Notes: generated from the sequence alone by a model not told the origin. Positions 7,362-30,100 are shown, counted from the stretch's first letter. The stretch: 32,000 nucleotides of DNA from Candidatus Saccharimonadota bacterium (GCA_001790095.1 MGBH01000001.1:840001-872000); one strand, 5' to 3'. Made by a program: numbers and translations.

Positions 7362-7390
7362 TTGACATTTGATATATTAACTTTTATAAT
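7362..7390 (+). promoter_or_regulatory. Perfect-consensus sigma70 promoter TTGACA-17-TATAAT
   Basis: TTGACA at 7362-7367, exactly 17 nt of spacer, and TATAAT at 7385-7390. The ATG at 7398 begins 8 nt after the last -10 base, giving a leaderless or near-leaderless tmk-like mRNA with no SD. Confidence 0.65.
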
Positions 7391-7397
7391 CATAATC

Positions 7398-7988
7398 ATG
7401 TTTATCGTCATTGAAGGCATTGATGGAGCAGGATGCGAGACACAAGCAAAACTTGTCTCTAAACAACTAACCACCAACCACCAATCACCAACCGCTCTTA
7501 TTAAATTCCCCCATTACGACACTCCTGTTGGAAAAATGATCAAAGATTTTCTCTATCTTAATCAAAAAATGTCAGCTCATGAACAGTTTTTGCTCTATAC
7601 TCTCCAGTTTATCTTTGATGCTCCCCATATTCGTGAACAATCAAAACATCAAATTATGATTGCTGACCGCTATTTCACAACTACCCTTTGCTACCAGGCT
7701 TTGGAAGGGTTTGATGAAACATTTGCACTTCAGTATGCTCAACAATTCGGCATCATTAAACCCGACATAGTATTTTTCCTAGATGTGTCACCTGAAACAG
7801 CAATCCACTGGAAACACGGTGAAGACAAAGAGAAAAATTTTAGAGAAAAAGACCATAAATTTATAAAAAAAACGTACGTGAAATATCAAGATCTTGTTAA
7901 GCGACAAGTCTGGACAAAATGGATACATATAAATGGTGAGCAACAAAAAGAGAAAGTCACGCAAGAAATTCTTAAATATCTTGTATAA
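7398..7988 (+). CDS. tmk: Thymidylate kinase-like protein with a degenerate P-loop (GIDGAGCET instead of GxxGxGK[ST]T)
   Basis: The start MFIVIEGIDGAGCETQAKLV aligns with the dTMP kinase N-terminus, and the DRY motif is present (ADRYFTTTLCYQ). The Walker lysine codon is TGC (Cys) at 7434-7436 and the following Ser/Thr is Glu. The ORF track's 7362 start is a TTG inside the -35 box. Confidence 0.75.
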   Translation: MFIVIEGIDGAGCETQAKLVSKQLTTNHQSPTALIKFPHYDTPVGKMIKDFLYLNQKMSAHEQFLLYTLQFIFDAPHIREQSKHQIMIADRYFTTTLCYQALEGFDETFALQYAQQFGIIKPDIVFFLDVSPETAIHWKHGEDKEKNFREKDHKFIKKTYVKYQDLVKRQVWTKWIHINGEQQKEKVTQEILKYLV

Positions 7989-7997
7989 TAAATTCTT

Positions 7998-8579
7998 ATG
8001 GAAAGAACTCTCATTATCTTGAAGCCAGATGCAGTAAAACGCGCACTTGTTGGCACTGTCATTGAAACATTTGAAAATGTAGGACTTAAATTATTGGCTG
8101 GTAAAATGCTTAGACCAGAGGCCGATGTAATAAAAAAACATTACCCAGGAACTCCCGAGTGGATCAAAGAAATGGGCAATAAAACACTTGCAAGCTTTAA
8201 AGAATCAGGCGTAAACGTAAGGGAAAAAATGGGGACGGATGATCCTGTAAAATTAGGTCAGTTTGTATATGACAGGTTGATTAAATATTGGCAAGAAGGT
8301 CCCATAATCGTCATGGTGTGGGAAGGACCAGGCGCAATAGCGATCGCACGCAAATTAAGAGGTCACACCATACCACTTCTAGCTCAAACAGGCACACTGC
8401 ATGCTCAGTATTCATACGACTCCTCTACCCTTTCTTCTGGACTTGACCGAGTTGTCAAAACTTTTATTCATGCCTCAGGATCTGTTGAGGAAGCGAATCG
8501 AGAGATAGCATACTGGTTTCCAAAAGAGACGTTCAAGACATACGAACGTGAGATCGATAAACTTTATCTTGTAAAATAA
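7998..8579 (+). CDS. ndk: Nucleoside diphosphate kinase, long form with an internal insertion of about 40 aa
   Basis: The start MERTLIILKPDAVKRALVGTVIETFENVGLKLLAGKM is a canonical NDK N-terminus. VMVWEGPGAIAIARKLRG is present, and the catalytic His lies in FIHASGSVEEANREIAYWF. A TATAAT box at 7984-7989 overlaps the tmk stop and lies 8 nt before the ATG. Confidence 0.85.
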   Translation: MERTLIILKPDAVKRALVGTVIETFENVGLKLLAGKMLRPEADVIKKHYPGTPEWIKEMGNKTLASFKESGVNVREKMGTDDPVKLGQFVYDRLIKYWQEGPIIVMVWEGPGAIAIARKLRGHTIPLLAQTGTLHAQYSYDSSTLSSGLDRVVKTFIHASGSVEEANREIAYWFPKETFKTYEREIDKLYLVK

Positions 8580-8591
8580 ACTCTCCTCAAT

Positions 8592-9284
8592 TTATCTATT
8601 AATAACTTTTTCTATGAGCTCCCTTAAATTTTGAAACCCCTTATCTTGAGGGAACAAACGTAGTGCATCTATAACGATTTTGTATGCTTTATCGGGTCTT
8701 AGTTGATAATAGTAGGAAAAATAAAGACCGTTATATGCTGCTTTAAGGTCATCACCCGTAGCTATGTTTTTAGCTTTTAAAAATAATTTTTCCGCATCTG
8801 GAGCAAGGGTAACGTTGGCATTCACATACAAAAAACCTAGCGACAGATATGCTTTTACAAACTGAGGATCGTTCTGTATCGCCTGCAATAAATACTGCTT
8901 TGATTTTTGCCATGAACCTGGCGTATCTAGATTATATTCAAAACGGTACATCTCTCCAAGTTGCCATTCAACCTTTGCTTTTTGCTTACCTTTTGTTTTC
9001 TCAAGAAGCGTCTTTGACAGAGCGATCGTATCCCGCAGTCGTTTAATGGATGTTTCTTTTGCCTTTTTGTCTTTAAATGTGGGAGGATAGGGGGTAAAGA
9101 TCATAAGCAGTTCATCGATCTCATGATTCACAAACGATATCTTGTCTTGCACGATTTTTTCCTGATACCGAAGATATGTTTTATAACCAAGCAATGAAAC
9201 AAGAGTAATAAAAAGAGCCAATACAGCAATCCATTTTATTTTTCTTTTATTCATTACTTTCATAAGATTACTTCCATACTTCAT
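8592..9284 (-). CDS. Membrane-anchored TPR-like repeat protein (hypothetical)
   Basis: One N-terminal TM segment (WIAVLALFITLVSLLGY) is followed by a helical-repeat region (QYLLQAIQNDPQFVKAYLSLGFLY...AAYNGLYFSYYYQLRPDKAYKIVIDALRLFP). It overlaps the helicase stop by 17 nt if M1 is used; Met codons at 9263 and 9254 are alternative starts. Confidence 0.65.
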   Translation of the reverse strand: MKYGSNLMKVMNKRKIKWIAVLALFITLVSLLGYKTYLRYQEKIVQDKISFVNHEIDELLMIFTPYPPTFKDKKAKETSIKRLRDTIALSKTLLEKTKGKQKAKVEWQLGEMYRFEYNLDTPGSWQKSKQYLLQAIQNDPQFVKAYLSLGFLYVNANVTLAPDAEKLFLKAKNIATGDDLKAAYNGLYFSYYYQLRPDKAYKIVIDALRLFPQDKGFQNLRELIEKVINR

Positions 9285-12270
9285 ACTGCAAACGTTTGAT
9301 CTTATGTCTATTATAAGCCCGAAGCTTAATTAAAAGCTCTACTCCTTCAGTAGAGCGAGTATAGATCAAGTCGCCTCCTCCTACATACATACGCCAGTTG
9401 GAAGCAAATATTTGAGCTCTTTCTTTGTTGAGAGCAAGGATGTTGGGAACGGGGTGATATGCAACCCTTTCCTGCTTTATGAACCGAAACAATTTGCGCA
9501 TGAACCACCATATCCCAGAATAGAAACCAATCCTCACATCATCCTCGCTTCGGGATACCAGATATCGATCATTTGTCACCGGTGCCAAAAGTTCACGAAG
9601 TGACTGGGAAAAGATTCTAGCATCTTCTTTAGTTGAATAATCAATATATAGATCATAATACCCAGCCTCATCGACCGCAACCCGCACATTGTCTACCGAT
9701 TGGTTTTGATTTACCACTCCTGCTTCACGAAGTGATTTTAATAAGCATTTTCCGATATCAAGCATGAATGAATCAAGCGGAAGTTCAATAAAACCTTTCT
9801 GTATGTATTGTATGATCTTTCTCCCCGCATACGCCAAAGAACCACCGATAAATACAACTCCCAAAAAACCCATAAGATACGGCGAGCGGCTCTGAAATCC
9901 AAGTTCAAGAAGATCCTGAAGTATCATAACATACCAAAAAATAAAGGAACTTATTGCGAAAATGATACTGTTTCCTATGGCATATAAGGTATTGCGAAGA
10001 GTATAGGCAGTCTGAAATTTGAGATCGCGTGCATCTATTTTTGTTGCGCTGTACTCAAAGTTTGAATACGGATCTCCTATCTTCCACTCTTTATAACGGA
10101 CATCTCTTTGTTTTGCTTTTGAGAGCATCCGCGTATTGATAAGTTCATATGATATTCGCTTAAACCCAAGAGTTTGATGCTGAAGTGCAAGCTGCTCATC
10201 TACATGCAAGTATCCCTTCATAATTTTTCCTTTTGATGCTATTCCATAAAACTGAGACTGTTTTTTTAAGAAACGTATAAAGTCCCTATCCCCTTTTTCA
10301 TACGAGGAATCAACACATATCACATCCCAGTTGTTGGAGAGTTTGAAAGGTTTTTTGGGGTTTAAGCGTATGGATCTTCCCCTTATTTGGTTCACCATGG
10401 TACTGGTGGTTGCGGTTGTCAGATCGATGAGGGTGTTAAGACTCAACGAGTCCCATCCTTCAGCCAACAGCCCTCGTGTCCCCACAATACATTTAATAAC
10501 GCCATCTTCAAACAAGCCTGTCACCATACGGACGTATACATTTGACTTCCAGTCTGAACCGGATCCGGAAAGTTCAACGATCCGATCATACGGTGTTTTA
10601 ACTATTTTAAAGGTAAATGCATATCCGTTTTGCGCTTTCCATTTGTTAACATGTTCCAATATGTGATCTATCTCATCAATGTCTACAAGTACTGTTGTTC
10701 CGGTCACAAGTACCGGTTCCAGTTTGGTAGTTACCTCATCGTGTACTATGTGTCTAAACGTACGCACAGCACCGCCGGCATCTGCATCCAATATGCCTTG
10801 GAGTGATTTTGTTAAGGTTGCCGACTGTTTTTCAAAATCAGTGATCACAACAGCCCGGACATCTTCTCCCATCGAATCTATCTCCGACCGCAAAATCCTG
10901 ACAACCGCTGTATTTTTGGCGTCAGAAAAGGCAAGAAGTATGTCTGAGGGGGAACGATGTTGACGAATCCCCTTTTCAGTAAGCAGGTACCCAAACGCAC
11001 GAAGTACTGACGCTATTTCATTATATTCTTTGTGATAGATTTTTTCTGTGCTTAATTTAAGAAAATTAAGGCTGTAGTCGGAAAGGAGCTCAACCCAGTC
11101 TTCTAAGTTCATCTCCTGTTCCATCTCTTCAGACTCGATGATATCAGGCGTAACATCTTCCTTTCGTATTTGCTCAATGTATTTTACCCCAGCTATAGCC
11201 AGGAAAGGATGCCGGTTAAAAAAACTAGTCCAGTCGTGTTTTCCGCCATCTGAAAGAGGTCTTTCAACAATCCGCTTTTGCACCCATCTCGAAAATGAGT
11301 CTCGACTCCCAATCTCCTGAATAAGATTCTGAAATCTATTTTGTATGGAGGATATATATTGTTTTTCCTTATGCGTAGGGTAACAAAAATATACAAGATC
11401 CTGATACGGAGCAAGGTTGCCTTCCTTGACGACCGCGGGAGTCGGTATTTCAAAATCGATATCTCCCATGATAGAAAGATAGTTGTCCAGCTCTTCATCA
11501 TTGGCTGAAAGAGGAGGCGTAGCGGTAAGACCTATCAAAACGGGATTTTCTATCCTTTTGATAAGTTCTTTTATCACAACAGCCCAATAATCAAGAAGGT
11601 GGTGAGACTCATCCATAACAATTGTTTTTACGCCATATGCAACAAGTCGTTCAATTAATTTTCTGGCATTTGGATGGAGGAATTGCGTCCCGTCAAAATT
11701 TGGATCAGATAGATACTGTGTTTTAATCTTTTTATAGTACTTTGTTAGCTCTCTTTTGTATGATGACGGATTATTCTTTTTTAAAGCCTCAATCCGTTTG
11801 TCAGCCTCACTCACAGTTTCTACGATAGAGGTTGCGACCATATCATCTTTCCAAGAGAAAATGGCAGCTTCCTGCACAAACTGAATATTTTCAGAAGGCG
11901 AAGAGATGAGCTGATAGGTATATGCGTTGATGGGAAGAATGGTTTTGGGATCAATGCTCACAACTTCATCAAGTTCGATTCTCGGTTCGATCTGGGGAAT
12001 AAACATGGATACCTTTTCTTTCCACTGAAGCTGAATGGTGGATGTGGGAGCAAACACGACGGCCGGTGCACCAAACCTTCGTATAAGCTCTATACCAACT
12101 ATTGTTTTCCCTGATCCAGGAGGGGCAACGATATGAAACTTGCGATCTTTATCTTTTGTCGTATCCACTTTCTGCAGTATTAAAGACTGATATTTCCGGA
12201 AAGGATACGAAAATTCCATACGTGAAAATATTTCAAGAGGTTTTTGATCTAGATCTTTTTTCTTTTCCAT
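9268..12270 (-). CDS. SF2 (ResIII/DEAH-type) helicase, 1000 aa, with a C-terminal transmembrane hairpin and an extra C-terminal domain
   Basis: Motif I is APPGSGKT, Ia VVFAPTSTIQ, II MDESHH, III LTATPP, V GTRGLLAEGWDSLSLNTLIDL and VI QIRGRSIR. Two hydrophobic helices, LYAIGNSIIFAISSFIFWYVMIL and YLMGFLGVVFIGGSLAYAG, map to about 9823-9987. A soluble tail of about 180 aa follows them. Confidence 0.9.
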   Translation of the reverse strand: MEKKKDLDQKPLEIFSRMEFSYPFRKYQSLILQKVDTTKDKDRKFHIVAPPGSGKTIVGIELIRRFGAPAVVFAPTSTIQLQWKEKVSMFIPQIEPRIELDEVVSIDPKTILPINAYTYQLISSPSENIQFVQEAAIFSWKDDMVATSIVETVSEADKRIEALKKNNPSSYKRELTKYYKKIKTQYLSDPNFDGTQFLHPNARKLIERLVAYGVKTIVMDESHHLLDYWAVVIKELIKRIENPVLIGLTATPPLSANDEELDNYLSIMGDIDFEIPTPAVVKEGNLAPYQDLVYFCYPTHKEKQYISSIQNRFQNLIQEIGSRDSFSRWVQKRIVERPLSDGGKHDWTSFFNRHPFLAIAGVKYIEQIRKEDVTPDIIESEEMEQEMNLEDWVELLSDYSLNFLKLSTEKIYHKEYNEIASVLRAFGYLLTEKGIRQHRSPSDILLAFSDAKNTAVVRILRSEIDSMGEDVRAVVITDFEKQSATLTKSLQGILDADAGGAVRTFRHIVHDEVTTKLEPVLVTGTTVLVDIDEIDHILEHVNKWKAQNGYAFTFKIVKTPYDRIVELSGSGSDWKSNVYVRMVTGLFEDGVIKCIVGTRGLLAEGWDSLSLNTLIDLTTATTSTMVNQIRGRSIRLNPKKPFKLSNNWDVICVDSSYEKGDRDFIRFLKKQSQFYGIASKGKIMKGYLHVDEQLALQHQTLGFKRISYELINTRMLSKAKQRDVRYKEWKIGDPYSNFEYSATKIDARDLKFQTAYTLRNTLYAIGNSIIFAISSFIFWYVMILQDLLELGFQSRSPYLMGFLGVVFIGGSLAYAGRKIIQYIQKGFIELPLDSFMLDIGKCLLKSLREAGVVNQNQSVDNVRVAVDEAGYYDLYIDYSTKEDARIFSQSLRELLAPVTNDRYLVSRSEDDVRIGFYSGIWWFMRKLFRFIKQERVAYHPVPNILALNKERAQIFASNWRMYVGGGDLIYTRSTEGVELLIKLRAYNRHKIKRLQYEVWK

Positions 12271-12905
12271 ATATTAAAAAGAAATCCTATTATGATTCCA
12301 AAAAGAGCTCCTCCCAGATGCGCCCACCACGCTACCCCTCCTTTAGATTGGGTTGCTACAAGACTCCCCCAACTATTGAAAAATTGGGTAACTACCCATA
12401 TTCCCAAGACCGCTTGCGCCGGTAACTCAATAGTCGTCAGATATCGGGCTGGGATAAGACACGTAATGGTATTGTGAGGAAAACGAACCAGATAATAACC
12501 CATTACCCCCGCAATAGCACCGGATGCACCAAGATGGAAGACGGTGGAATCCATGTTTAAAACATATTGAGCTATATTTGCTACGATTCCAGCTGCTATA
12601 TAGAATAATATATAGAGAATAGGCCCCATATCCGCCTCAACATTGTCCCCATATATATGAAGAAACCACATATTTGAAAGTATGTGCATAACTCCTCCAT
12701 GAAGAAACACCGAAGTGATAAATGGATACCATGTAACGATCTTGTCAATATTGACCTGACTTGGCACAAGGGACCAAACTTTAAAAAAACCGTCGAGATC
12801 AGGAGTTAAAAACTCAATGAAAAATATGACTGAAGTAATAAATATAAAGATGTATGTTGCAAATGTAAACTTGTTTGGAGGATCGCTGTCTTTGATAGGT
12901 AACAT
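12249..12905 (-). CDS. Rhomboid family intramembrane serine protease
   Basis: FLHGGVMHILSNMWFLHIYG (the HxxxxHxxxN region), the catalytic GxSG motif in HLGASGAIAGVMGYY, and the catalytic His in WWAHLGGALFG. The protein is polytopic. Confidence 0.9.
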   Translation of the reverse strand: MLPIKDSDPPNKFTFATYIFIFITSVIFFIEFLTPDLDGFFKVWSLVPSQVNIDKIVTWYPFITSVFLHGGVMHILSNMWFLHIYGDNVEADMGPILYILFYIAAGIVANIAQYVLNMDSTVFHLGASGAIAGVMGYYLVRFPHNTITCLIPARYLTTIELPAQAVLGIWVVTQFFNSWGSLVATQSKGGVAWWAHLGGALFGIIIGFLFNIWKRKKI

Positions 12906-12906
12906 A

Positions 12907-13767
12907 TTATTTTGTCAGATCGGTATTCCACAATATTCTTTTCCAAGGACTTTCCGGATTGGTACTCAACCATCGCAGTGCATTCTCCATCTCGGGATGA
13001 TAAGCATTTGCCATCCAAAAGGTTCTTCCAAGTATATAGTGATTCCCTAGTTCATCCCATGAACCATAAAGACGTTGAAGATTTTGTCCAGCAAAAAACA
13101 TATAGCTCCACGCTTCCTTTTCACTGATATATCGTGCTGAATATGCCCAACGAGCTACACTTGCCATGCGCATATAGTCCCATGCATACAGTTTTTTGGT
13201 GGCTAATTTGTTGCGATTCTTCCATACAAAATCAAGAAGATATATAAGAGTAGTTCTGTCCTGGTCGGAGTTGACAAACTTGATTATGGATTCGCGTTTA
13301 TCTATATATTCTTCATCCGTCTGTGCAAAATGAGAGATGACACGATAAACATCAGCAAATTGTTTAGTGTGTCCCTCTTTTTTAAGCCATTCCAAAGTAC
13401 TTAAAGCGCTTGCTCTATCCGCAACCCCCCACCATTCCCTTAAAAGCATCTCAGCTGTTTGCTGAGTACACTCACAATCAAGAGTGTTCAGGCTTTCTCC
13501 ATTACGATATGATAGGAGGGCGCTTGTTGCCAATAACCATTGTTTAGACTCTGTGGATAAAGATATTGCAAGGGGCGTTGGTGTTGGGCTTGGAGTGGGG
13601 TTTGATACAACAAGCGTAGGCTTTTTTGCAGTAAATAAAGAGTAAAGATTCTGGAGAGAAAATTTCTTAGCAACCAATATAAAAAGCACTATCGCAATCA
13701 TGATAAAACTGAGCTTAAGCAGTGTATTGTTAGTCGCATCTTTGTTGCTGTTAAATGAACCTGACAT
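12907..13767 (-). CDS. Membrane-anchored DUF1266-like protein
   Basis: An N-terminal TM segment (LKLSFIMIAIVLFILVA) is followed by a Pro/Thr linker (NPTPSPTPTP). The C-terminal YAWDYMRMASVARWAYSARYISEKEAWSYM...YGSWDELG resembles the DUF1266 signature from memory. The stop lies 1 nt before the rhomboid ATG. Confidence 0.7.
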   Translation of the reverse strand: MSGSFNSNKDATNNTLLKLSFIMIAIVLFILVAKKFSLQNLYSLFTAKKPTLVVSNPTPSPTPTPLAISLSTESKQWLLATSALLSYRNGESLNTLDCECTQQTAEMLLREWWGVADRASALSTLEWLKKEGHTKQFADVYRVISHFAQTDEEYIDKRESIIKFVNSDQDRTTLIYLLDFVWKNRNKLATKKLYAWDYMRMASVARWAYSARYISEKEAWSYMFFAGQNLQRLYGSWDELGNHYILGRTFWMANAYHPEMENALRWLSTNPESPWKRILWNTDLTK

Positions 13768-13797
13768 AGGTGTTTGGTCGAATCGGTTAATTATAAA

Positions 13798-16377
13798 TCA
13801 TTGACACTCCGCAAGTTCTGTCTGTTGATCTGCCCCCATATATATAAAACGGTATGGCTTATCAGGAAACTCTTGGTAGTTAAAATCGTAGACGACTGTC
13901 TCACCTGGCTTGAGCGATGTGCTTTGTATGGCAGGATTAGGAAACCCAGTGATTTCTTTTGCTTTCATGACAACCAGATATGGAGAAACCTGTTCTGTTT
14001 TTAACCCGAAATTGTTTGAAAAATGCACCCGAACATAAATCCTTCCTTTACTTTGCCAAACCTTTATGACTTTGGCAGACACATCTCCCTCAACAGTCAC
14101 CAAACCCCTGTTAATACATATCATCTCCTCACCTGTAACATTATCCGACGTGGTGCTAAAAGAAGATTGTTTTGTATCAACTGCTTTTTCATACAACTTA
14201 TCTATTTGAGGAGATGTTTCCTTAACAAGTGTATCGTATCGTTTGACCAGTTTTTCATCGATCCATTCTCCCCCTCTTATCTGCCTATTTATCTCCGATA
14301 CTAATCCATACCCTTCCTCAACATTTTTCCTTATCTGCGCTAGATTGTCTTTGTCCATACCGGGAAACCCCACAAAAGAATTGACTTCATTTAAAACCAT
14401 TTTTGTGGTTGCAAGTTCTTTTTGCCAATATTGTATGGTTTGAGATGAATAGGTAGGTCTGTCAGGCCTTGCGATGATGATGACAATTATGGGCATCTTG
14501 CACTCGTTGATGGACATTTGTGACTGACCAATACCGATCTCTGAAAACGTATCTGAATAGAAGTCCAAAAAGGCATTATTTTGTTCATGTATTTGATTCA
14601 AAATCTGCTCCTCGTCTAAATAACCGTAGGTAATAAACTCCGAAGTAGCTGTAAAAACATATCCTTCCTGTTTTAATACTGTCTCAACTACATAAGAATC
14701 GTTTTTCCCTGAACCTATGTGGGATGAGATATATGCTGCTTTGTTCTCAGCAATCTTATCCAGGGTCTTATGTATCGTAAGTGGTGAGAGACTCATATTC
14801 TCTCTTCCGCGGTTATATTTCTTTAGAAACAAATCTATATCAAGCTTAGCTCTTAGATTGGCTTTTGGGGAAGTACTTGTAAGTACATCTGCTTGGGGTG
14901 ATTTGATCACTCCGTCTATGTCTTTTTGACTTACAAAACCAATCGCCCGCGAATCAAAGCTCACGACTCGATTGTCGCCTAATGCAAGATAATGTTGAGA
15001 CGGAACTTTATACGTCCTACATTCAAGGATATACTCATTACCATAGGTCGGACCGTATTTTACATAGGGTTCTTTAATGAGTTCATTATTTATATATACG
15101 TGTCCCCCCTTGATAAGGATATCGTCTCCCGGCATACCAACAACCCGTTTAAGATAATGGGATGGCGCTGTCTCTTCGTTTCGAAAAGATATGATATCTC
15201 CTCTTTGAATTGGAAATTTTTTCGGGCTGCCTAGCGTAATCTTTTCACCGTTTTTAACGGTTGGATACATTGAAGTTCCATATACCGGAACAGTTATGGG
15301 TTTGTCAATGAGCCCATATTCAATGAGGCCGTTGTATACCTTTTTTTTTGTCTCAGTAATAGCTTTATTCCAAGTAGAAAACAAAATACCAAACAACAGG
15401 ATTGTATAAAAAATCTTTTTGACAACTGACTTTTTTGCAAAAAAAACATCTTTAGCAATTAATAATGGATGAGCTACAATAATAAATAATTTTTTAGTAA
15501 TTGAGTGCGTTTTCCCGTATTTTTTTTGATATATAAACAGATACGTAATACTCAAAGCCAAAAGAAAGACGGCATGATCCCAAATAAGTGCTGCTTCATA
15601 TGAAAAAAATAATGCCGGTATAAATATACCTATCCAGACTATGAGAAAAACAGACATTCCAGATCTCATACAGTTCGCATATGAAGAGGGAATATCAACT
15701 ATTTTAAGAAGTATGCGTATGATAAACGCCAACCACAATAAGGTAAAAAGAAACGCCAAACCAAATAAAAAAACCAACCCATGAAGAACTAATAAAAGAA
15801 AGAGGAAGACCCCAATCTGTAGTTTTGTTTTATTTTCCTCAACATATTGATTTAGTGATGAAAAATGTCTCTGGAGCACCTCTTTGTTTATCACCAAATT
15901 GGTGACTCGATCAAGTGGAGTTACTGTTATCCGACCGCTATTTAGATATACCAAACTGTTTCCAGTCAGTAACATATATGATTGATACTTTTCAAAGTCC
16001 TCTACCTTTGCCTTCGTATCAATCGTAAGCACTCTTACTTTTGCCCTTCCCTTTCCCGGGCTTTTTCCGGGTTGTAAAAGCTGATTAAACTGAGACTGTG
16101 AAAAACTGATGAAGTACGGCTCTCTAACGTTGGTACTTACTCTTCCGTTTTGGATCCTTAGTTCAAGCCCTGCTGGATATATGTCATGTATGATCGTCTG
16201 CTGTAAAGTGGCACTATTCTCTACGAACGTGTAGCCTGAAGATATTATGGCATACATCGGACGGACTGCCATGGCGTAGAAAAGAAACAGACATAAAAGA
16301 AGGGGCTTTTTTATTGATATTTTTTCCGTGAGAGATTTATCAATTGCATTTGTTATCGAAAAAAAAATTACTTTCAT
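13798..16377 (-). CDS. Polytopic membrane protein fused to a signal peptidase I (S26) domain and a C-terminal extension of about 350 aa (CAP/YkwD-like plus beta-sandwich-like)
   Basis: The S26 boxes are GTSMYPT (Ser, codon near 15273), YLKRVVGMPGD (Lys) and GDNRVVSFDSRAIGFV, mapping to about 14900-15291. Several TM helices lie upstream. The downstream FLKKYNRGRENMSLSPLTIHKTLDKIAENKAAYISSH looks CAP-like (weak). The alternative longer start is the ATG at 16431; I prefer 16377 because it leaves 67 nt before the divergent ndk paralog. Confidence 0.85.
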   Translation of the reverse strand: MKVIFFSITNAIDKSLTEKISIKKPLLLCLFLFYAMAVRPMYAIISSGYTFVENSATLQQTIIHDIYPAGLELRIQNGRVSTNVREPYFISFSQSQFNQLLQPGKSPGKGRAKVRVLTIDTKAKVEDFEKYQSYMLLTGNSLVYLNSGRITVTPLDRVTNLVINKEVLQRHFSSLNQYVEENKTKLQIGVFLFLLLVLHGLVFLFGLAFLFTLLWLAFIIRILLKIVDIPSSYANCMRSGMSVFLIVWIGIFIPALFFSYEAALIWDHAVFLLALSITYLFIYQKKYGKTHSITKKLFIIVAHPLLIAKDVFFAKKSVVKKIFYTILLFGILFSTWNKAITETKKKVYNGLIEYGLIDKPITVPVYGTSMYPTVKNGEKITLGSPKKFPIQRGDIISFRNEETAPSHYLKRVVGMPGDDILIKGGHVYINNELIKEPYVKYGPTYGNEYILECRTYKVPSQHYLALGDNRVVSFDSRAIGFVSQKDIDGVIKSPQADVLTSTSPKANLRAKLDIDLFLKKYNRGRENMSLSPLTIHKTLDKIAENKAAYISSHIGSGKNDSYVVETVLKQEGYVFTATSEFITYGYLDEEQILNQIHEQNNAFLDFYSDTFSEIGIGQSQMSINECKMPIIVIIIARPDRPTYSSQTIQYWQKELATTKMVLNEVNSFVGFPGMDKDNLAQIRKNVEEGYGLVSEINRQIRGGEWIDEKLVKRYDTLVKETSPQIDKLYEKAVDTKQSSFSTTSDNVTGEEMICINRGLVTVEGDVSAKVIKVWQSKGRIYVRVHFSNNFGLKTEQVSPYLVVMKAKEITGFPNPAIQSTSLKPGETVVYDFNYQEFPDKPYRFIYMGADQQTELAECQ

Positions 16378-16444
16378 ACAAAAAATGCGTGTCTTTTGAT
16401 TGTAGAATATGATATATTTTACTTTAACCATTTACTTAACACAA

Positions 16445-17035
16445 ATGAATAAGCAAAAAGCATTACTCATCATAAAACCCGACGGAGTTCAGAGGGGACT
16501 TTGTGGGACTATCCTTAAACGTTTTGAAAAAGTTGGCCTTACGATAATTGGTTTTAAATTTGCTTCAGCTGATCCCGCAACCGTAAAAGCACACTACCCA
16601 GAAAATGATGTATGGTTTGGTAAGGTGGGTCAACGAACTCTTACAAATTATGCGAAAAAAGGCTTGGATGCAAAAAAAATATTTGGGACTGATAATGCGA
16701 TACAAATCGGAAAGACAGTTAAGCAGTGGCTTATTTCTTATTTTCAGGAATCCCCTGTGTTGATAGTCGCAGTTGAGGGATACGAGACTATTGAGATCGT
16801 CCGTAAAATATCTGGAAACACTATCCCCATACTTGCGATTCCAGGCACAGTTCGCGGAGATTTTTCGCATGATACGATCGATCTTGCCAATGAACAAAAC
16901 AGACCGCTTCGTAACATTATCCATGCCTCAGATTCAGTAGAGGATGGGGAAAAGGAAGTAAATCTGTGGTTTACTAAAGAAGAGCTTTTTTCTTATAAGC
17001 GAGCTGATGAAGCTTTGATGTTTCCGCTTAACTAA
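16445..17035 (+). CDS. ndk: Nucleoside diphosphate kinase paralog, long form with the same internal insertion
   Basis: MNKQKALLIIKPDGVQRGLCGTILKRFEKVGLTIIGFKF, then GTVRGDFSHD, and the catalytic His in IIHASDSVEDGEKEVNLWF. The ATG at 16445 matches the family N-terminus; the 16409 start in the ORF track would add 12 non-homologous residues. Confidence 0.85.
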   Translation: MNKQKALLIIKPDGVQRGLCGTILKRFEKVGLTIIGFKFASADPATVKAHYPENDVWFGKVGQRTLTNYAKKGLDAKKIFGTDNAIQIGKTVKQWLISYFQESPVLIVAVEGYETIEIVRKISGNTIPILAIPGTVRGDFSHDTIDLANEQNRPLRNIIHASDSVEDGEKEVNLWFTKEELFSYKRADEALMFPLN

Positions 17036-17639
17036 GCACTTTATCAAATCCTTTAAATTTTTTTGCAATCTTCTCTGTTACTATCTGTATTTCTTGATAT
17101 AAATGATCTAGGTCTTTATTGTTCTCTATCAGAAAATCAGCCATATTCATACATCTTTTGACCTGTTGACCGGCATCGTTTTTTTCATCTTCATGGTCGC
17201 GATTATCAACTATTACAAAACTGTCCCAGTCTTTAGGATCCCACGGTTTTCCTCGTTCAATCACTCGTTTGTAACGCACCGCACGGGTTGCATCAACGGC
17301 AATGAGTACAAAATTAGGTAGTTTGCGCAAAAAGCGTACCTCGCCTGGATTACGTATCCCCTCAATGACGACCCTCGTACTTCCCTCTTTTTCCAATATA
17401 GAGATTGCTCGTTTTGCAAGCGCTCCCTCACCCTCTTTCGCCCGCAGTCCATCTCCTATGTCCTGTAGGGTCTTTCGAGTAAACTCGGTTACTCCTTTCT
17501 TTTTTAATTCTTCATGGACGATATAGGAAAGAGAGAAAGAAACAAAACCAAACTGTTTGATTAAATAATCAGCAACAACTCCCTTACCTGTTGCAAGAGA
17601 TCCAACCAAACCAATGAATAGTTTTGCTTTCATACCCAT
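17028..17639 (-). CDS. P-loop nucleotide kinase (dephospho-CoA kinase / UPF0200 / adenylate-kinase-like fold); substrate unknown
   Basis: The Walker A motif is GLVGSLATGKG, and EGIRNPGEVRFLR is typical of this small kinase family. Its 3' end overlaps the convergent ndk paralog by 8 nt. Confidence 0.7.
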   Translation of the reverse strand: MGMKAKLFIGLVGSLATGKGVVADYLIKQFGFVSFSLSYIVHEELKKKGVTEFTRKTLQDIGDGLRAKEGEGALAKRAISILEKEGSTRVVIEGIRNPGEVRFLRKLPNFVLIAVDATRAVRYKRVIERGKPWDPKDWDSFVIVDNRDHEDEKNDAGQQVKRCMNMADFLIENNKDLDHLYQEIQIVTEKIAKKFKGFDKVLS

Positions 17640-24178: not shown

Positions 24179-27100
24179 TTACCTAATATTTTTTAGAAAT
24201 CCAAATGTTTTGGACAGGTTTTCGATAACTAAGTTAAGCGCGTCTTTTGTTGACTTTGGTGTGATGGTCACGGTGTCATCAGACTGAGCGATGTTTGCAG
24301 CCTTGTCTTTGGAAACTGCCCGAAGATGATAGATCTTTGATGGTGAAAGACCAGGGATGGTGATGACATGGTTGGTCGTCAGATTAGTGTCCTCCTGTGT
24401 GGTCTGACTATAGGTAACACCAGTCCCTTGAGCATATTCAACCTGTGTGGTAGATGGTTCATCGGTATCCCAGCTCACGATAATCTGCGCTTTTGCATCA
24501 TCTCCAATCCCAACGATCGTGCTTTCAACGATCATGTTTTGTATTTCAGGCGGTCTGAAATCCACCGCAGTCTTTACTTTATTGGACGGATTTATGACTT
24601 CGTTCCCTGCTGTGTCTCTACCCTTTACAATGATCGTATAATCGGTATCGTCTTTTAAATTCTTCAAAATAACCTCATGACTTTTCTTTAGTATCAGGCT
24701 TATCTGATCTTTGGCTGCTTCTAGATTGTTGGATGGATAATAGGTAACGATCGATGAGATAGGTGTGTTGGAAGTCCAAATCAATCTAAGTGTGGCCGTT
24801 GGCATACCGCTTACCTGTTGTATACGAAGACCTACTATCTTTGGCACTGGAAGAGTCTCAAATATATAATCATCTCCCGCAAACGTATTACCCTCATCAT
24901 CTTCAACAACAATACGATAATGATAGATCGTTCCCTCTGTAAGACTGTCAAGCTTAAGAGTAGTTGTCGTCTCATTTTTGCTTACTGAAGTCGAACTCAT
25001 GCTTCCATAGGAAAGTGTTTTCCCATATTGTAGCGTTGCCTTTATACCGTTTTTGCTGGTAAAGGTAACATATGCCGAATGAATACTGATATCTGACGCT
25101 TTCACGCCCGATACAAAAGGCGCGGGGTTAGTAGTAAGGGTTATTTCTTCAGATGAGCCATAGTTACCATCTTCATCAGCCCAAGAAACTTGAAAATAAT
25201 AAGCAGTACCAGGCGCAAGTTCTGTCAGTTTAATCTCATGGTTAGTCACTTGATCAGATGATCCAACTTCATTGCCGTAATCGCCTGATTTTGTCCCGTA
25301 TTTGACAAACGAATTACTTGCCCGTGATGTTGACCATATGATAGTTGCACTTTTTGTTTTTACAGTAGCTGATGGAGAAGCGGTGAGATCAGGAGCTTCC
25401 AACCATCTGCCTGTTGGCATAAGAGACACCGTGGTTGAAGCGCTTGAACATTGATCGGTCGTTGTACAAGCCTTTATACAAAGATAATATGTAGTTGATT
25501 CTAGATCAACTCCACCGATTGAAGTCACCACATATGAGTTTCCTGCGGTTGAGCCTGCGATCTCATAACTTGACATATCTGTTGAACATTCGGCATTCGT
25601 AGTTGAAGCATAAACTCTGTATTCTTCAAATGAAGTACCAAGGTCAGTGGGCGGATCCCAAGTCAGTCCTACACGGTATTTTTTTGTCGCACGGATTGAG
25701 TTGTCAAACGCCTCAGGAGCAAGCGGGATACCAGGAGCCTCAACAGATACTGAAAATGTTTTTGAGGCGTAATTAGCATAAGCTACATTATTAGCTTCAT
25801 CAACCGCCACTACGTAAAACGTATTTTCGCCCTCATGAGTACCTGCTATATCATTTACCATGCTAGCTGAGGTCGTTGATATATTAGATGCATTGGGAAG
25901 CTCATTTACCGAGTATCTGTATTCTTTGATAGTACCTCTATATACGGACGGTTCATCCCAGTCAAAATCGAATTGATTTGCCGCAGGATCGCTTGAACCT
26001 AATACAAGATTTCTTGGAGGAGAAGGAGCAACGCTGTTAAAATTAAAATTAACGCTCGTAACAGATGTATAATTACCTGCCACATCGTTTGCCTTGAGAT
26101 AGAACGTATTTGTCCCCTCCTGATAAGCAGTAATACCTGTCAAAGTGCACATACTTTCTGTACATGTTCCGGTAAATGCTTGATATTGAGATAGACTACC
26201 CGATGCAGTTCCGGTTTTATAATAATAATTAAGTAGTCCTGAAGCAGTACTATTTGTAATAGGATCGCTCGTTGGAATCCAGTTAAAGGCGAAGTTGTTG
26301 GTAGAAGTGTAACCGCTTGGCAGTACTGATACGTTTTCTGATGCTACGTCTGTTGGAGAAACAGAATCAAAAAAGTAATGAAACGGAGACCAATGGGTTG
26401 TGTTTATATTTCCTGCATTATCAACCGCCTTTATTTTGAGATAATAGTCTCCATCTTCCGTACCATCTGTTGCAAGGGTTGCACTATAACTTGCAGTTGT
26501 GATAAGTTCACCAGATACTGATGCATCAGCGTTAATATCATTCCCAAAATATACATAGTACCCGTTTACTCCTGACCCTATACCATCATCCGCTCCACTC
26601 CATTCAAAATAGGGATGAGCATAGTTATACCATGTATTGTCTGTTATCGATGCTGATTTTGTTGCGGTCGTATAAGAATCAAGAGTATCTGGATTAGTTG
26701 GAGCTGTTTCATCAGCATAGTAAGTCAAACTTAGATCTGATATGGTCGGAGTTGTCGCGCTTTCTTCTGAGTTGAGTGTGGCTTTTACTTGTACATAACG
26801 ACTTGCCGGAGAATTAATATTGTAAGTGAAGTTTGTTCCTTCAATTTGTTTCAAGTTTGTTGCCTGCGCCCATGCAGACCAGTTTGCCGCATCAGTTGAG
26901 GTTCGAGTCTCAAACATAATGCTGGTTGCAGAAGGCGAGGCGACTGTCGCGGACAATCCGGCAAATCCATAGGTGTTTCCGATACTTAAGGGTTTTGTGG
27001 TATAGGTCCCTTGATATTTATAGGATGATGATGTGGTTGGAATATTATACTTCCAGAATGTCTGAGTATAATTTCCTTGTAATGCGTAAAGAGTATTGCT

Positions 27101-30100
27101 TGGCCCTTTGACCAAAGCACCTCCCGCATATGTTTGAGATGGAGTCATAGTGCCGGTCATCCATGTATCACTCGCAACATCATAGATATGAAAACCGTTG
27201 TTGTTGAATCCGGACATAACATAGATCTTTCCATTGTCATATACGCTTCCTGAGCCGTTGGAGACTAATTCAGGAACAGAGGTAAGCGTAGTCCATGTTG
27301 GTGGGTCCGATATCGTATATTTATAAAAAGTGTTTGTATTATTACCCCTTACAATATACAGATTTCCACTTCCATCATATGTGATAGAGGCACCCCACGA
27401 ACTGCCAAATACATCAGGAGGAGACGCTCCCGGATTTGATTCGGTAGTCCACTCATTTGTTGAGATTGTATACTTATAGAGCGTACGTGAACCAAGTCCA
27501 CGTAGAACATAGATTGTATCACTTCCGTCATATGCGGCTATCTGATTACCGGCCGCGCCTATGGTATCGGGCGCATTTGCCATCTTTGTCCATTCGGAAG
27601 TCGCAGGACTATACCGGTACATGGTTTTTGTGGTACCGCCGCATACGGCATATAGGTTATTGTTCGCATAGACCAATCCGCCATTATAGATACATGGAAG
27701 ATAGGGTAAAATCGACCATTTTTTCGTTGAAACCTGGTATCTATTCATATAGGCAGTACCTCCTTGAGCGTAGTAGATCGTGTCTGATCCATCATATGCT
27801 AAAGAAGTGCCTGTATACGGTTGATGGATGATTGTCTCGCCGTCACTTTGGTATGTGCGATCAAGAGGCAGAATCGGCGTCTCCGGAACAAACCTATTTT
27901 CTTTGAAATCAAACTTGTATATGGCAGTTGTTCCTGCACCCGATGTGCTGTATCCCTGGAAAAGATATGCATAGCGTGATCCGTCATACGCTACAGCTCC
28001 TGAGGATAACCAAACATCTGTTGCAACAGGTACTGATTCCCATTTGTTGGTAAGCATCCCGTACCGCCATACAAACCGTTTGTTGTCTGTATTGGCTTGA
28101 TAGTCATAAGTCGTAAATACGTACAGGTAGTTATCATAAAAGACTACATTATGTGAAGCAGATCCTATGGTATATGGAGCAAGAGGCAGGGTATTGTCCC
28201 ATGTGTCAGTCGCAACTATATATTTGAGAAGTCCTGACCCTCCACCAGTTACTGCCCATATATACGTTGATCCATCGTAATAGAGTCCTGCGCCGGATGT
28301 CACAGCGTAAGGAGGTGCAGACATGTTTCCCCAATCATCAGCCGAGATTGTATATTTCAAGAAACTTGTTGATCCTCCTGAGAATGCATATATCGTATCG
28401 CTTCCAACCCTCACAAGAGATGCTCCATACGACCATGCAACAGTCGGCTGAGTAAGGCTCGAATTCCAGGTGTTTGTTGAGATCGTATATTTGAAAAATC
28501 CATATTGTCCGCCTCCCTGAGATACATAGATGCTGTCATTTCCGTCAAACAACATACTTGATCCATAGTAAATATTACCCGGCGCATCAGTAAGCTGAGT
28601 CCATGAGGTAGAAACTGGATCATATGTATAAAATGTCTTTGTGTTATAACCGCGCAGTACATATATATTACTATTGGCGTATGTTGCTGCTCCATATACC
28701 ATGCGTGCTCCCCAAGGTAGCGTACCTATCTGATATCCTGCCCATGAGCCCCGAGTCATCGCCTCAAGAGTAATAGAGGTATCAGGAGATACGGCAGGTT
28801 TGTCTGTCTCACTTCCTGCGCTAGCTGTTACAATACCTGTCCAAAAAGGATCAGCAGCATCGACGCCTGCTCCACTTCCAAGCTGACCATTGATATTATT
28901 GCCTGAGGAATCACTTACATTCTGCGAAACAGCATCGTCAAAATGATAAAGTCCTACAGTATTTGCATCGGTTGTAAATGGTGTGGTATGGGGCGTGAAA
29001 TCCGCAGTATATCGAGCGATGTTTGAGATCCGCATCTCATCAAGCCCTCCATACATATAACCGGTATATCCACCTGAACCGTTATAACCGATATACTGAG
29101 TGACATTGGTAACGAGTGTACCTGTTAGACCGGTACGGGTAAAATCAAGTCTGCCGTTTACAAACCCCTGCTCAGTACCTGTTGCGGAATCATACGTGAG
29201 AGCAAAATGATACCATTTACCTGACTCCAACATAGTAGTACCCGTATTTGAATATACGCTTGATGAGGCGGTCGTTCGCAACTGATATGCCAGGTAGTTT
29301 TGTCCCGAATACACTCCAACAGCAGTCTGCCATGAAGAATTGCTTCCATAAAAAAGCCTATAACCATTTGAGTTGTAATATTTAAACCATCCCTCTATTG
29401 TTACTGCTGAAGAACCATTAAGCGTTGTGTGCATGGTAGGAAGTCTCACATAATCTGCTCCATCAAAAGTAAGCCCTGTTCCCCATTTTGATGCGCCGTT
29501 TGAGGAAATCATGTCAAGTTTCGGACTGCCCGTTTCGTTTGGATTGCCATAGTATACGTAGTAATTTGTATCGTCCACTCCGGATACAATGCTTTTTTGC
29601 AGTGGAAAATATGTGGTTGAAGCATCTATATACTGATGGTCTATCTCCCTCCAGGATGATCCATCAAGATATATTACTCGCCAATCTTTTCTGTCTTCAC
29701 GAAGTTTACTAGCAGTAACTAATGCGTCCGTATCAATATCCACTTTCACCAGGCTTCCGGCAGATGAGGCAGTGAATGAAGAAATGGTAAGCTGTTTGCG
29801 GTACGCATAGCTCATATTCCACCACGATGTATCGGACGTATAAGTTGCGCTGCGGGTGGATTCTGCATCATCCCAGTCTGCTTGATTTGTCAATGTTGTT
29901 GTTGTAGCAGGTGATATGCCACTATATATATAGCTAAAACCTGCAACCGCATCGGATTTATTACCCAGCTTGTCTTTTGCTTTGATACGAAGATAATATG
30001 TCTCGCCGTTTGTCATACCGGTTGCGACCGTATAATGAGCATCACTCTGATATGTTCCCAGTGTCTCAGGGTCAGCTGCAGCGTTGCTTCCAAAATACAC

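What the first reader, a model, noticed from the sequence alone, without database searches (positions are those of the whole stretch)
8592..16431. Tightly packed five-gene membrane block: SPase-I fusion, DUF1266-like, rhomboid, TM-anchored SF2 helicase, TPR-like anchor protein
Seen in sequence:
- Five co-directional minus-strand genes have junctions of +30 nt (13767/13798), +1 nt (12905/12907), -22 nt (12249/12270) and -17 nt (9268/9284).
- I found no promoter-like or terminator-like signals inside the block.
- Every product has predicted TM segments.

Established knowledge: signal peptidase I and rhomboids are membrane serine proteases. DUF1266 and TPR modules are typically interaction or adaptor domains. 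ResIII/DEAH SF2 proteins are nucleic-acid translocases and are normally soluble.

Inference: linking a membrane-tethered translocase to two membrane proteases and two adaptor-like proteins does not match any system I can name. One possibility is an envelope-associated nucleic-acid handling or uptake module, which would suit a nucleotide-scavenging cell; Tmk-like and Ndk genes flank the block on both sides. Another is protease-gated signalling or defence. Tight packing alone is weak evidence in such a compact genome.
Basis: partly seen in the sequence, partly recalled or inferred. Interest (0 to 1): 0.65.

Follow-up and report, generated by a model that had tools for sequence, protein, structure and literature searches.

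The report
Rhomboid-helicase pair beside peptidase-DUF1266 pair
The five tightly packed membrane genes are real, but they are not one conserved machine: comparison with relatives splits them into a rhomboid protease plus membrane-anchored helicase pair (kept across many Patescibacteria), a signal-peptidase-fusion plus DUF1266 pair, and a species-specific TPR gene; the helicase belongs to a widespread, unstudied family that usually stands alone.

Summary
All five minus-strand ORFs, their junctions (+30, +1, -22, -17 nt), domain calls and hydrophobic segments are confirmed. The tight packing is typical of this genome: 6 of 9 other same-strand junctions are 30 nt or less.

The five-gene unit does not recur.
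- In 80 genome loci anchored on helicase orthologues, DUF1266 and the TPR gene never appear. A signal peptidase appears once. A rhomboid appears in 6.
- The closest relative (79% helicase identity) has only DUF1266-rhomboid-helicase.

Two sub-modules do recur.
- Rhomboid followed by helicase, overlapping by 1-56 nt in eight of nine lineages, occurs in 9 of 16 Patescibacteria-like lineages (46-79% identity). All other neighbours differ.
- The signal-peptidase fusion followed by DUF1266 occurs in 3 lineages.

The helicase has intact SF2 motifs. Its predicted fold resembles Hef, XPB and RIG-I. It carries a family-wide two-helix membrane hairpin and a 175-residue C-terminal domain with no PDB fold match. 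About 1,300 clusters at 50% identity carry this domain, mainly from Chloroflexota, Actinomycetota, Bacillota, Patescibacteria and some archaea, and most are solitary. No PADLOC defence model matched beyond generic helicase similarity, and I found no literature.

Verdict: a composite of small operons. The real lead is an uncharacterised membrane-tethered helicase with a rhomboid partner in Patescibacteria.

The parts
13798..16431 (-). G1: signal peptidase I fusion (877 aa as an ORF; probably about 859 aa from Met19 at 16377). It has an N-terminal multi-pass membrane region, an S26 catalytic domain at aa 381-510, a marginal CAP-like stretch at 537-636 and a C-terminal region of about 240 aa. It is the upstream member of pair A.
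   Evidence: Pfam and NCBIfam hits. Motifs SMYPT387, KRVVGMPGD428 and GDNRVVSFDSR485. Five to six hydrophobic segments. Only 7 homologues were found. The two with usable context (48% and 43% identity) are each followed by a DUF1266 gene.
12907..13767 (-). G2: DUF1266 protein with an N-terminal membrane anchor and a Pro/Thr-rich linker. It is the downstream member of pair A. In the closest relative it sits directly upstream of the rhomboid.
   Evidence: Pfam DUF1266 4e-41. Membrane segment at 15-33. Orthologues lie +7/+9 nt after G1 homologues in L095 and L096/L097, and 29 nt upstream of the rhomboid in L081. It is absent from all other helicase loci.
12249..12905 (-). G3: minimal six-pass rhomboid intramembrane serine protease. 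It is the upstream member of pair B.
   Evidence: Pfam Rhomboid 1e-31. Motifs HILSN74, GASG126 and AHLGG195. Orthologues lie directly upstream of the helicase in 9 Patescibacteria-like lineages, overlapping it in eight.
10306..12213 (-). G4 helicase core (aa 20-655): two RecA-like lobes with a helical insertion at about aa 300-470.
   Evidence: ResIII/DEAD hits. Motifs GSGKT52, DESHH220, TATP249 and QIRGRSIR628. AlphaFold2 model with pLDDT 83.7. Top Foldseek hits are DRH-1/RIG-I/MDA5, XPB, Hef and FANCM, E about 1e-10.
9787..10008 (-). G4 membrane hairpin (aa 755-828): two long helices joined by a short loop. Basic residues lie on both outer flanks, which puts both the helicase core and the C-terminal domain in the cytoplasm.
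   Evidence: Hydrophobic segments fall at the same alignment positions (q765-787 and q796-816) in 59 of 60 family members. The model shows helices 755-791 and 797-828.
9271..9795 (-). G4 C-terminal domain (aa 826-1000): a conserved alpha/beta domain of unknown fold and function. It is the family signature.
   Evidence: Invariant residues are listed. AlphaFold2 pLDDT is 80.7. There is no PDB fold match (best E 0.48) and no PDB sequence match. The profile finds 1,309 clusters. In every full-length protein checked the domain is C-terminal to a ResIII helicase.
9268..12270 (-). G4 whole gene: membrane-hairpin-anchored SF2 helicase (1000 aa). It is the downstream member of pair B.
   Evidence: Full-length homologues at 40-79% identity occur across Patescibacteria, Chloroflexota, Actinomycetota, Bacillota and archaeal genome bins.
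8592..9284 (-). G5: TPR-like protein with an N-terminal membrane anchor. It is specific to the species or strain and is not part of either conserved pair.
   Evidence: TPR hits are below threshold. It aligns to the TPR part of P0291 with E 0.002. It was found only in L083, a 95%-identical fragment, and is absent from L081 and all other loci.

Best explanation
The block is a composite, not a five-part machine. It joins two small conserved operons and one lineage-specific gene in a gene-dense Patescibacteria (CPR)-type genome.

Pair B (G3 then G4). An active rhomboid protease is encoded next to, and probably translationally coupled with, an SF2 ATPase of the Hef/XPB/RIG-I structural type. The ATPase is held at the cytoplasmic face of the membrane by a two-helix hairpin and carries a C-terminal domain specific to the family. 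I infer that the helicase translocates on duplex or branched nucleic acid at the membrane. I also infer that in Patescibacteria the rhomboid acts on or with its hairpin, by cleavage, turnover or complex formation.

Pair A (G1 then G2). A signal-peptidase-I fusion facing the outside of the cell is paired with an anchored DUF1266 protein, as a dedicated peptidase with its client or partner.

G5 is an unrelated neighbour.

Shown: the decomposition, the conservation pattern, the intact catalytic motifs, the hairpin and the fold class.

Inferred: the functional coupling within each pair (about 0.5 for pair B, about 0.4 for pair A), the direction of rhomboid action and the nucleic-acid substrate.
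For: Five-gene unit not conserved:
- across 80 loci, 0 have DUF1266, 0 have G5, 1 has a signal peptidase and 6 have a rhomboid.
- No neighbour family is shared beyond lineage-level synteny.
- The closest relative, L081, lacks G1 and G5.

Pair B:
- The rhomboid sits directly upstream of the helicase in nine lineages: the window, L081, L084/L001, L003, L018, L006, L091, L092 and L094. It overlaps the helicase by 1-56 nt in all but L018, where the two are about 1 nt apart.
- These span 46-79% helicase identity, and every other flanking gene differs between them.
- Loci with the rhomboid occupy the deepest and the shallowest branches of the clade, which fits an ancestral pair lost several times.
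- Rhomboid similarity tracks helicase similarity.

Pair A:
- Both G1 homologues whose context could be read are followed at +7/+9 nt by a G2 orthologue. In L096 no rhomboid or helicase follows.

Helicase:
- Motifs are intact and the fold class is supported.
- The hairpin is conserved in 59 of 60 members.
- The C-terminal domain is always attached to the helicase.

Genome context:
- Base composition is uniform and the neighbours are housekeeping genes, so this is not a genomic island.
Against: - Seven of 16 Patescibacteria-like lineages lack the adjacent rhomboid. So do nearly all Chloroflexota, Actinomycetota, Bacillota and archaeal loci, so the helicase does not need a neighbouring rhomboid.
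- No hairpin sequence signature separates lineages with and without the rhomboid, so a substrate relationship has no direct support.
- Overlapping genes are mechanically hard to separate, so some persistence of the pair could be neutral.
- Pair A rests on only three lineages, and G2 persists without G1 in L081.
- There are no expression data. All five genes could still be co-transcribed here.
- Only 16 Patescibacteria contexts could be examined.
Confidence: 0.55

Rival explanations
1. All five genes form one dedicated envelope system, either nucleic-acid uptake and scavenging or protease-gated signalling or defence.
For: The genes are co-directional with tight or overlapping junctions. All five products are membrane-associated. 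DUF1266 bridges the two pairs in both the window and L081. A plain signal peptidase sits next to the rhomboid-helicase pair in L006. One G1 homologue is fused to TPR repeats.
Against: The full set occurs only in this species. G1 and G5 are missing at 79% helicase identity. DUF1266 and G5 are absent from the other 80 or more helicase loci. In L096 the G1-DUF1266 pair occurs with no rhomboid or helicase after it. The NDK/Tmk flanks are not conserved in other loci with the rhomboid. PADLOC gave no system-level hit. Packing is genome-typical.
Confidence: 0.06
2. There is no functional coupling at all. The five are independent housekeeping membrane genes, and both 'pairs' are inherited synteny kept by overlapping reading frames in small genomes.
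For: The helicase is solitary in most phyla. Seven of 16 Patescibacteria-like lineages have lost the adjacency. No sequence signature in the hairpin correlates with rhomboid presence.
Against: The pair survives to 46-48% helicase identity, close to the inter-phylum level of 42-44%, while every other neighbour has been replaced. A related Chloroflexota group independently has a rhomboid immediately next to the helicase, in convergent orientation. Both G1 homologues whose context could be read have DUF1266 next to them.
Confidence: 0.27
3. The helicase is a single-gene anti-phage or abortive-infection protein. The SF2 core senses foreign nucleic acid at the membrane, and the hairpin or C-terminal domain acts as the effector. 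The rhomboid modulates it in Patescibacteria.
For: The family has a patchy distribution: 192 of about 185,000 species genomes matched the search patterns (a lower bound), spread across distant phyla and archaea at 40-47% identity. The fold resembles the RIG-I-like sensors. There are weak PADLOC hits to PbeA, DinG and type I restriction enzyme models. Toxin-antitoxin genes lie near some loci.
Against: The PADLOC hits are generic SF2 similarity at 17-27 bits. Neighbours are mostly housekeeping genes and are stably syntenic within lineages; in Clostridiaceae they are glycolysis genes. The family is rare on plasmids (5 of 72,556, all non-mobilizable) and in phages (2 weak hits). No island signals appear in the window.
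Confidence: 0.1

Closest known systems
Hef / FANCM / XPB / RIG-I-like SF2 duplex translocases
   Same: It has two RecA-like lobes with motifs I, II (DExH), III and VI, and a helical insertion. These are the best Foldseek matches (E about 1e-10), with weak sequence hits to XPB and Hef.
   Different: It scores 32 bits against the 610-bit cut-off of the XPB equivalog model. None of those enzymes has a membrane hairpin or this C-terminal domain. No nuclease partner (Bax1 or the Hef nuclease) or CARD-type signalling domain is present.
Rhomboid with a dedicated membrane client (PARL-PINK1, Providencia AarA-TatA, B. subtilis YqgP-MgtE, rhombosortase with GlyGly-CTERM proteins); recalled from general knowledge
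   Same: An active rhomboid is genetically tied to a protein anchored by membrane helices. This is the pattern expected if the protease processes or polices that anchor.
   Different: No cleavage site or substrate motif was identified. The client would be a 1000-aa helicase with a hairpin rather than a single-pass segment. The rhomboid scores far below the rhombosortase and GlpG equivalog cut-offs.
Dedicated signal peptidases encoded with their substrates (B. subtilis SipW in tapA-sipW-tasA, conjugative TraF, the NiSOD maturation protease); recalled from general knowledge
   Same: An S26 peptidase is encoded immediately upstream of a secreted or anchored partner protein, conserved as a pair.
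   Different: G1 is an 860-880 aa fusion with a multi-pass N-terminal domain and large C-terminal extensions. Whether DUF1266 is cleaved is unknown. The TraF and SodX models score below their cut-offs.
ComFA-type competence helicase, or helicases recruited to the membrane through partners (CshA with RNase Y; viral NS3 with NS4A); recalled from general knowledge
   Same: An SF2 ATPase acts at the inner face of a membrane.
   Different: Those enzymes are soluble and recruited by partner proteins; here the anchor is built in. No competence or degradosome genes are linked to the helicase in any locus examined.

Membership tests
Signal peptidase I (MEROPS S26) | The profile score exceeds the curated cut-off. 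| tested here: met
   TIGR02227 scores 110.9 against 47, and Pfam PF10502 scores 108.9 against 22.9.
Signal peptidase I (MEROPS S26) | The catalytic Ser (box B, SMxPT), the catalytic Lys (box D, KRxxGxPGD) and box E (GDNxxxSxDSR) are present. | tested here: met
   SMYPT at 387, KRVVGMPGD at 428 and GDNRVVSFDSR at 485.
Rhomboid intramembrane serine protease | The profile score exceeds the cut-off, and the HxxxN, GxSG (catalytic Ser) and TM6 His motifs are present. | tested here: met
   PF01694 scores 110.2 against 22.6. HILSN at 74, GASG at 126 and AHLGG at 195.
GlpG or rhombosortase subfamilies | The equivalog model cut-off is reached. | tested here: not met
   GlpG scores 31.8 against 250, and rhombosortase scores 30.9 against 84.
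DUF1266 | The Pfam gathering score is reached. | tested here: met
   141.6 against 27 bits, covering profile positions 2-175 of 175.
SF2 helicase (ResIII / DExH) | Motifs I, II, III and VI are present, with a two-lobe RecA fold. | tested here: met
   GSGKT at 52, DESHH at 220, TATP at 249 and QIRGRSIR at 628. The ResIII profile hit has E 2e-15.
XPB (NF045503 equivalog) | The equivalog cut-off is reached. | tested here: not met
   32.1 against 610 bits; only the motif I region aligns.
TPR repeat protein (G5) | A Pfam TPR model scores above its gathering score. | tested here: inconclusive
   TPR_17 scores 17.4 against 24.4, and TPR_11 scores 16.6 against 26.8. BLASTP against the TPR region of P0291 gives E 0.002.
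Known anti-phage defence systems (PADLOC-DB 2.0) | Component models are hit for a recognised multi-gene system. | tested here: not met
   Four of the five proteins have no hit. The helicase has only weak generic hits to PbeA, DinG and a type I restriction enzyme, at 17-27 bits.
Conserved five-gene operon or system | The same gene set recurs around orthologues in independent lineages. | tested here: not met
Conserved gene pair: rhomboid then membrane-anchored helicase | The adjacency is retained across divergent lineages while the flanking genes turn over. | tested here: met
   Nine lineages at 46-79% identity, with the rhomboid directly upstream (overlapping by 1-56 nt in eight of them) and all other neighbours different.
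Conserved gene pair: signal-peptidase fusion then DUF1266 | The adjacency is retained across divergent lineages. | tested here: met
   The window, L095 and L096/L097 (G1 identity 43-48%), with gaps of +30, +7 and +9 nt. This is only three lineages.
Operon (co-transcription of the five genes) | A single transcript spans the junctions. | not testable with these tools
   The consensus promoter and terminator scan is at chance level. No transcriptome data are available.

The most novel reading that the evidence does not exclude
The rhomboid-helicase pair is a regulated intramembrane proteolysis switch for a nucleic-acid motor. The helicase is parked at the membrane by its hairpin. The rhomboid cuts the hairpin, either separating the motor from its C-terminal domain or releasing it. 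This would couple an envelope event, such as DNA uptake, phage entry or membrane stress, to nucleic-acid processing. More broadly, the roughly 1,300-cluster family would define a new class of integral-membrane SF2 translocases with a new C-terminal fold.
Probability: 0.15. Interest if true: 0.75.

Novelty: new variant of a known kind. Interest (0 to 1): 0.42.

Why it matters
SF2 helicases are normally soluble. This family is hard-wired into the membrane by a hairpin and carries a C-terminal domain with no match among solved structures. It is conserved at 40% identity or more from Patescibacteria and Chloroflexota to some archaea, and it has no described function.

Its conserved operon with a rhomboid in Patescibacteria offers a rare candidate for a natural bacterial rhomboid client. 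Such clients are a long-standing gap in rhomboid biology.

Cultured carriers exist, which makes the question testable: Thermoclostridium caenicola DSM 19027, and for the roughly 900-aa subfamily Paenibacillus cellulositrophicus and Chondrinema litorale.

The work also removes a tempting but unsupported "five-gene system" from further consideration.

Tried and rejected
- The metagenome-contig scan with the single helicase sequence returned one strain-level fragment (L083), because the patterns it used were too specific. The first genome contigs attempt failed and was repeated.
- Four literature searches found nothing relevant: membrane-anchored or transmembrane helicase; DUF1266; rhomboid + helicase + Patescibacteria; SF2 helicase + membrane anchor.
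- The C-terminal domain has no PDB sequence hit (best E 0.31) and no fold hit (best E 0.48). The weak PINK1 and AcpS rows are noise.
- PADLOC and PHROGs gave only generic helicase hits.
- I looked for a hairpin sequence signature distinguishing helicases with a rhomboid neighbour from those without. None was found.
- I looked for DUF1266 fused to a rhomboid, signal peptidase or helicase among G2 homologues. None was found among the 10 homologues.
- A weak S26 hit upstream of the helicase in L052 turned out to be an S24-like/DUF5305/EAL protein, not a signal peptidase I.
- The promoter and terminator scan is at chance level and was not used as evidence.
- I considered and rejected a mobile-element or genomic-island origin: base composition is uniform, the flanks are housekeeping genes, and the family is rare on plasmids and in phages.


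Full report
**Observation**

The junctions are +30, +1, -22 and -17 nt.

Profile searches confirm the domains:
- G1: Peptidase_S26 at aa 381-510 (TIGR02227 scores 110.9 bits against a cut-off of 47), plus a marginal CAP hit.
- G2: DUF1266 (4e-41).
- G3: Rhomboid (1e-31).
- G4: ResIII/DEAD at the N-terminus.
- G5: TPR matches only below threshold.

The catalytic and ATPase motifs are all present:
- G1: SMYPT, KRVVGMPGD and GDNRVVSFDSR.
- G3: HILSN, GASG and AHLGG.
- G4: GSGKT, DESHH, TATP and QIRGRSIR.

Every product has at least one strongly hydrophobic 19-residue stretch.

Three qualifications apply.
- Promoter-like and terminator-like consensus matches do occur inside the block, but at the level of shuffled sequence: 27 against 26.7, and 6 against 7.3. 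That scan says nothing either way.
- Tight packing is normal here. Six of the nine other same-strand junctions in the window are 30 nt or less.
- G1 probably starts at Met19 (ATG at 16377). Its 858-aa homologue aligns only from residue 23, and the longer ORF overlaps the divergent NDK gene.

Base composition is even across the window. The flanks are housekeeping genes: PEPCK, Tmk, two NDK paralogues and ABC transporters. The exact proteins occur on a contig of about 1.2 Mb, which fits a small Patescibacteria (CPR)-type genome.

**Is the five-gene set conserved?**

The helicase has many full-length homologues of about 1000 aa at 40-79% identity. I fetched 80 genome loci anchored on it, with up to 10 kb of flank. 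They are mostly Chloroflexota, with Patescibacteria, Actinomycetota, Bacillota (including the isolate Thermoclostridium caenicola DSM 19027) and archaeal genome bins.

I searched all their ORFs with the four other block proteins:
- DUF1266: 0 loci.
- The TPR gene: 0 loci.
- A signal peptidase: 1 locus (L006), where it is a plain 165-aa enzyme on the opposite strand.
- A rhomboid: 6 loci.

Custom profiles gave the same picture.

De novo clustering of all neighbouring ORFs found no family shared beyond lineage-level synteny. Examples are an MFS transporter with PGK, TPI and iPGM in Clostridiaceae, and a PfkB-type kinase in one Anaerolineae group.

Annotated contexts agree:
- The closest relative (79% identity, L081) has NDK | DUF1266-rhomboid-helicase | NDK. 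It has no signal-peptidase fusion and no TPR gene.
- Relatives at 57-64% identity (L082, the P0009 locus, L086 and L087) carry the helicase among unrelated genes.
- G5 was found only in a 95%-identical fragment.

**What is conserved**

*Pair B: rhomboid followed by helicase.* An orthologous rhomboid lies immediately upstream of the helicase in nine lineages: the window, L081, L084/L001 (WWE3), L003, L018, L006 (Dojkabacteria), L091, L092 and L094. The two genes overlap by 1-56 nt in eight of them; in L018 they are about 1 nt apart.
- That is 9 of the 16 Patescibacteria-like lineages I could examine.
- They span 46-79% helicase identity, close to the 42-44% seen between phyla.
- In each locus the other flanking genes are different.
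- In neighbour-joining trees the loci with the rhomboid occupy the deepest branches as well as the shallowest, and loci without it are interspersed. The simplest reading is an ancestral pair with several later losses.
- One Chloroflexota group (L026, L036) independently has a distant rhomboid immediately downstream in convergent orientation.

*Pair A: signal-peptidase fusion followed by DUF1266.* G1 has only seven detectable homologues.
- The two whose context could be read (48% and 43% identity) are each followed, 9 and 7 nt later, by an orthologue of G2.
- In L096 nothing resembling a rhomboid or helicase follows.
- G2 has only ten close homologues, with no domain fusions.

The window therefore holds pair A, pair B and a species-specific gene laid end to end. 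L081 keeps DUF1266 next to pair B but lacks G1.

**The helicase family**

An AlphaFold2 model built from a 60-sequence alignment is confident, with pLDDT 83.7 and pTM 0.76.
- Its best PDB fold matches are DRH-1/RIG-I/MDA5, XPB, Hef and FANCM (E about 1e-10). These are SF2 duplex translocases with a helical insertion between or within the RecA lobes.
- It is not an XPB orthologue: it scores 32 bits against a cut-off of 610.
- Two long helices (755-791 and 797-828) form a hairpin.
- Hydrophobic segments fall at the same alignment positions in 59 of 60 family members. Basic residues flank the hairpin and the loop is short. This places both the motor and the C-terminal domain in the cytoplasm.
- The last 175 residues are strongly conserved and model well, with pLDDT 80.7. 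They have no PDB match by sequence or fold.
- A profile of this domain finds 1,309 clusters at 50% identity (754 at E of 1e-10 or better). The domain is always at the C-terminus, and every full-length member checked is a ResIII helicase.
- A subfamily of about 900 aa also has the hairpin. It occurs on large non-mobilizable replicons of Paenibacillus cellulositrophicus and Chondrinema litorale, again among unrelated genes.

Several searches gave no functional lead:
- Phage records give only two weak hits.
- PADLOC and PHROGs give generic helicase similarity only.
- Four literature searches found no description.

**Mechanism**

*Shown.* The block is composite. Both proteases look catalytically competent. 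The helicase has an intact ATPase core of the duplex-translocase structural class. It is built into the membrane by a hairpin that is conserved across the family.

*Inferred for the helicase.* It works on duplex or branched nucleic acid at the inner face of the membrane.

*Inferred for pair B.* In Patescibacteria the rhomboid is functionally tied to the helicase, with probability about 0.5. The most economical mechanism is action on the hairpin, by cleavage, turnover or a stable complex. This would resemble known rhomboid-client pairs such as PARL-PINK1, AarA-TatA and YqgP-MgtE (recalled from general knowledge).

I found no hairpin signature that separates helicases with a rhomboid neighbour from those without. 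The substrate idea therefore has no direct support.

*Inferred for pair A.* It may be a dedicated signal peptidase with its client or partner, as with SipW and TasA. Whether DUF1266 is cleaved is unknown.

*Rivals.* These are neutral inherited synteny (0.27), a single-gene defence protein (0.10) and the original five-gene system (0.06).

**Novelty and score**

The five-gene "system" is not a real unit. What remains is a new variant of a known kind. It is an SF2 helicase family with a built-in membrane hairpin and an unmatched C-terminal domain. In Patescibacteria it has a conserved rhomboid partner.

The lead is unusual and testable, because cultured carriers exist. Its function is still open, and the comparative sample for the pair is small. 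Interest: 0.42.

Noticed in passing
window 7362-8579 and 16409-17639: Two NDK paralogues (7998-8579 and 16409-17035) bracket the block on the opposite strand. Each matches the NDK model in two stretches. A thymidylate kinase (7362-7988) and a P-loop kinase-like gene (17028-17639) lie beside them. The closest relative, L081, also has NDK on both sides; the other rhomboid-helicase loci whose gene content was listed (L084/L085, L091, L092, L094) do not.
   Followed up: partly
window 16377-16431: The G1 ORF overlaps the divergent NDK start by 23 nt. Homologue P0287 (858 aa) aligns only from G1 residue 23, so the real start is probably Met19 (ATG at 16377). That leaves a divergent intergenic region of only about 30-70 nt.
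   Followed up: partly
L001/L084 at about 3.2-5.0 kb; L004 8187-9956; L071, L074, L077 and L078 about 1 kb upstream of the helicase: An ABC-F-type double-ATPase gene lies within 0-2.5 kb upstream of the helicase in two Patescibacteria lineages and in one Bacillota group. This could be chance, because the family has several paralogues per genome.
   Followed up: no
P0291 (G1 homologue, 622 aa); window 8592-9284: One G1 homologue is a signal peptidase I fused to TPR repeats. The C-terminal half of G5 aligns to that TPR part (28% over 93 aa, E 0.002). This is a weak domain-fusion hint linking the peptidase to TPR partners.
   Followed up: partly
L006 1886-2383 (minus strand): In a Dojkabacteria genome bin, a plain 165-aa signal peptidase I sits divergently immediately upstream of the rhomboid-helicase pair. 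This is a second, independent case of a signal peptidase next to that pair.
   Followed up: partly
window 9336-9356 (minus strand): A terminator-like hairpin (8-bp stem followed by TTTTAATTAA) lies inside the last 30 codons of the helicase, 52 nt before the G5 ATG. It could lower read-through into G5. The overall count of such sites is at chance level.
   Followed up: no
window 24179-31939 (minus strand): A giant 2,586-aa ORF with a TTG start lies downstream of MacB/FtsX-like and ABC genes. It was not examined.
   Followed up: no
L096 3615-4358: The 744 bases after the DUF1266 gene contain no ORF longer than 77 aa and no tRNA. This stretch may be non-coding or hold an unrecognised RNA.
   Followed up: partly
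L026 13068-13934 and L036 4811-5566: In one Chloroflexota group a distant rhomboid lies immediately downstream of the helicase in convergent orientation (29-41 nt away). This adjacency is independent of the Patescibacteria arrangement.
   Followed up: partly
P0017 (1086 aa helicase homologue): One Patescibacteria homologue carries a hit to Pfam family PF12773 that the other listed homologues lack.
   Followed up: no
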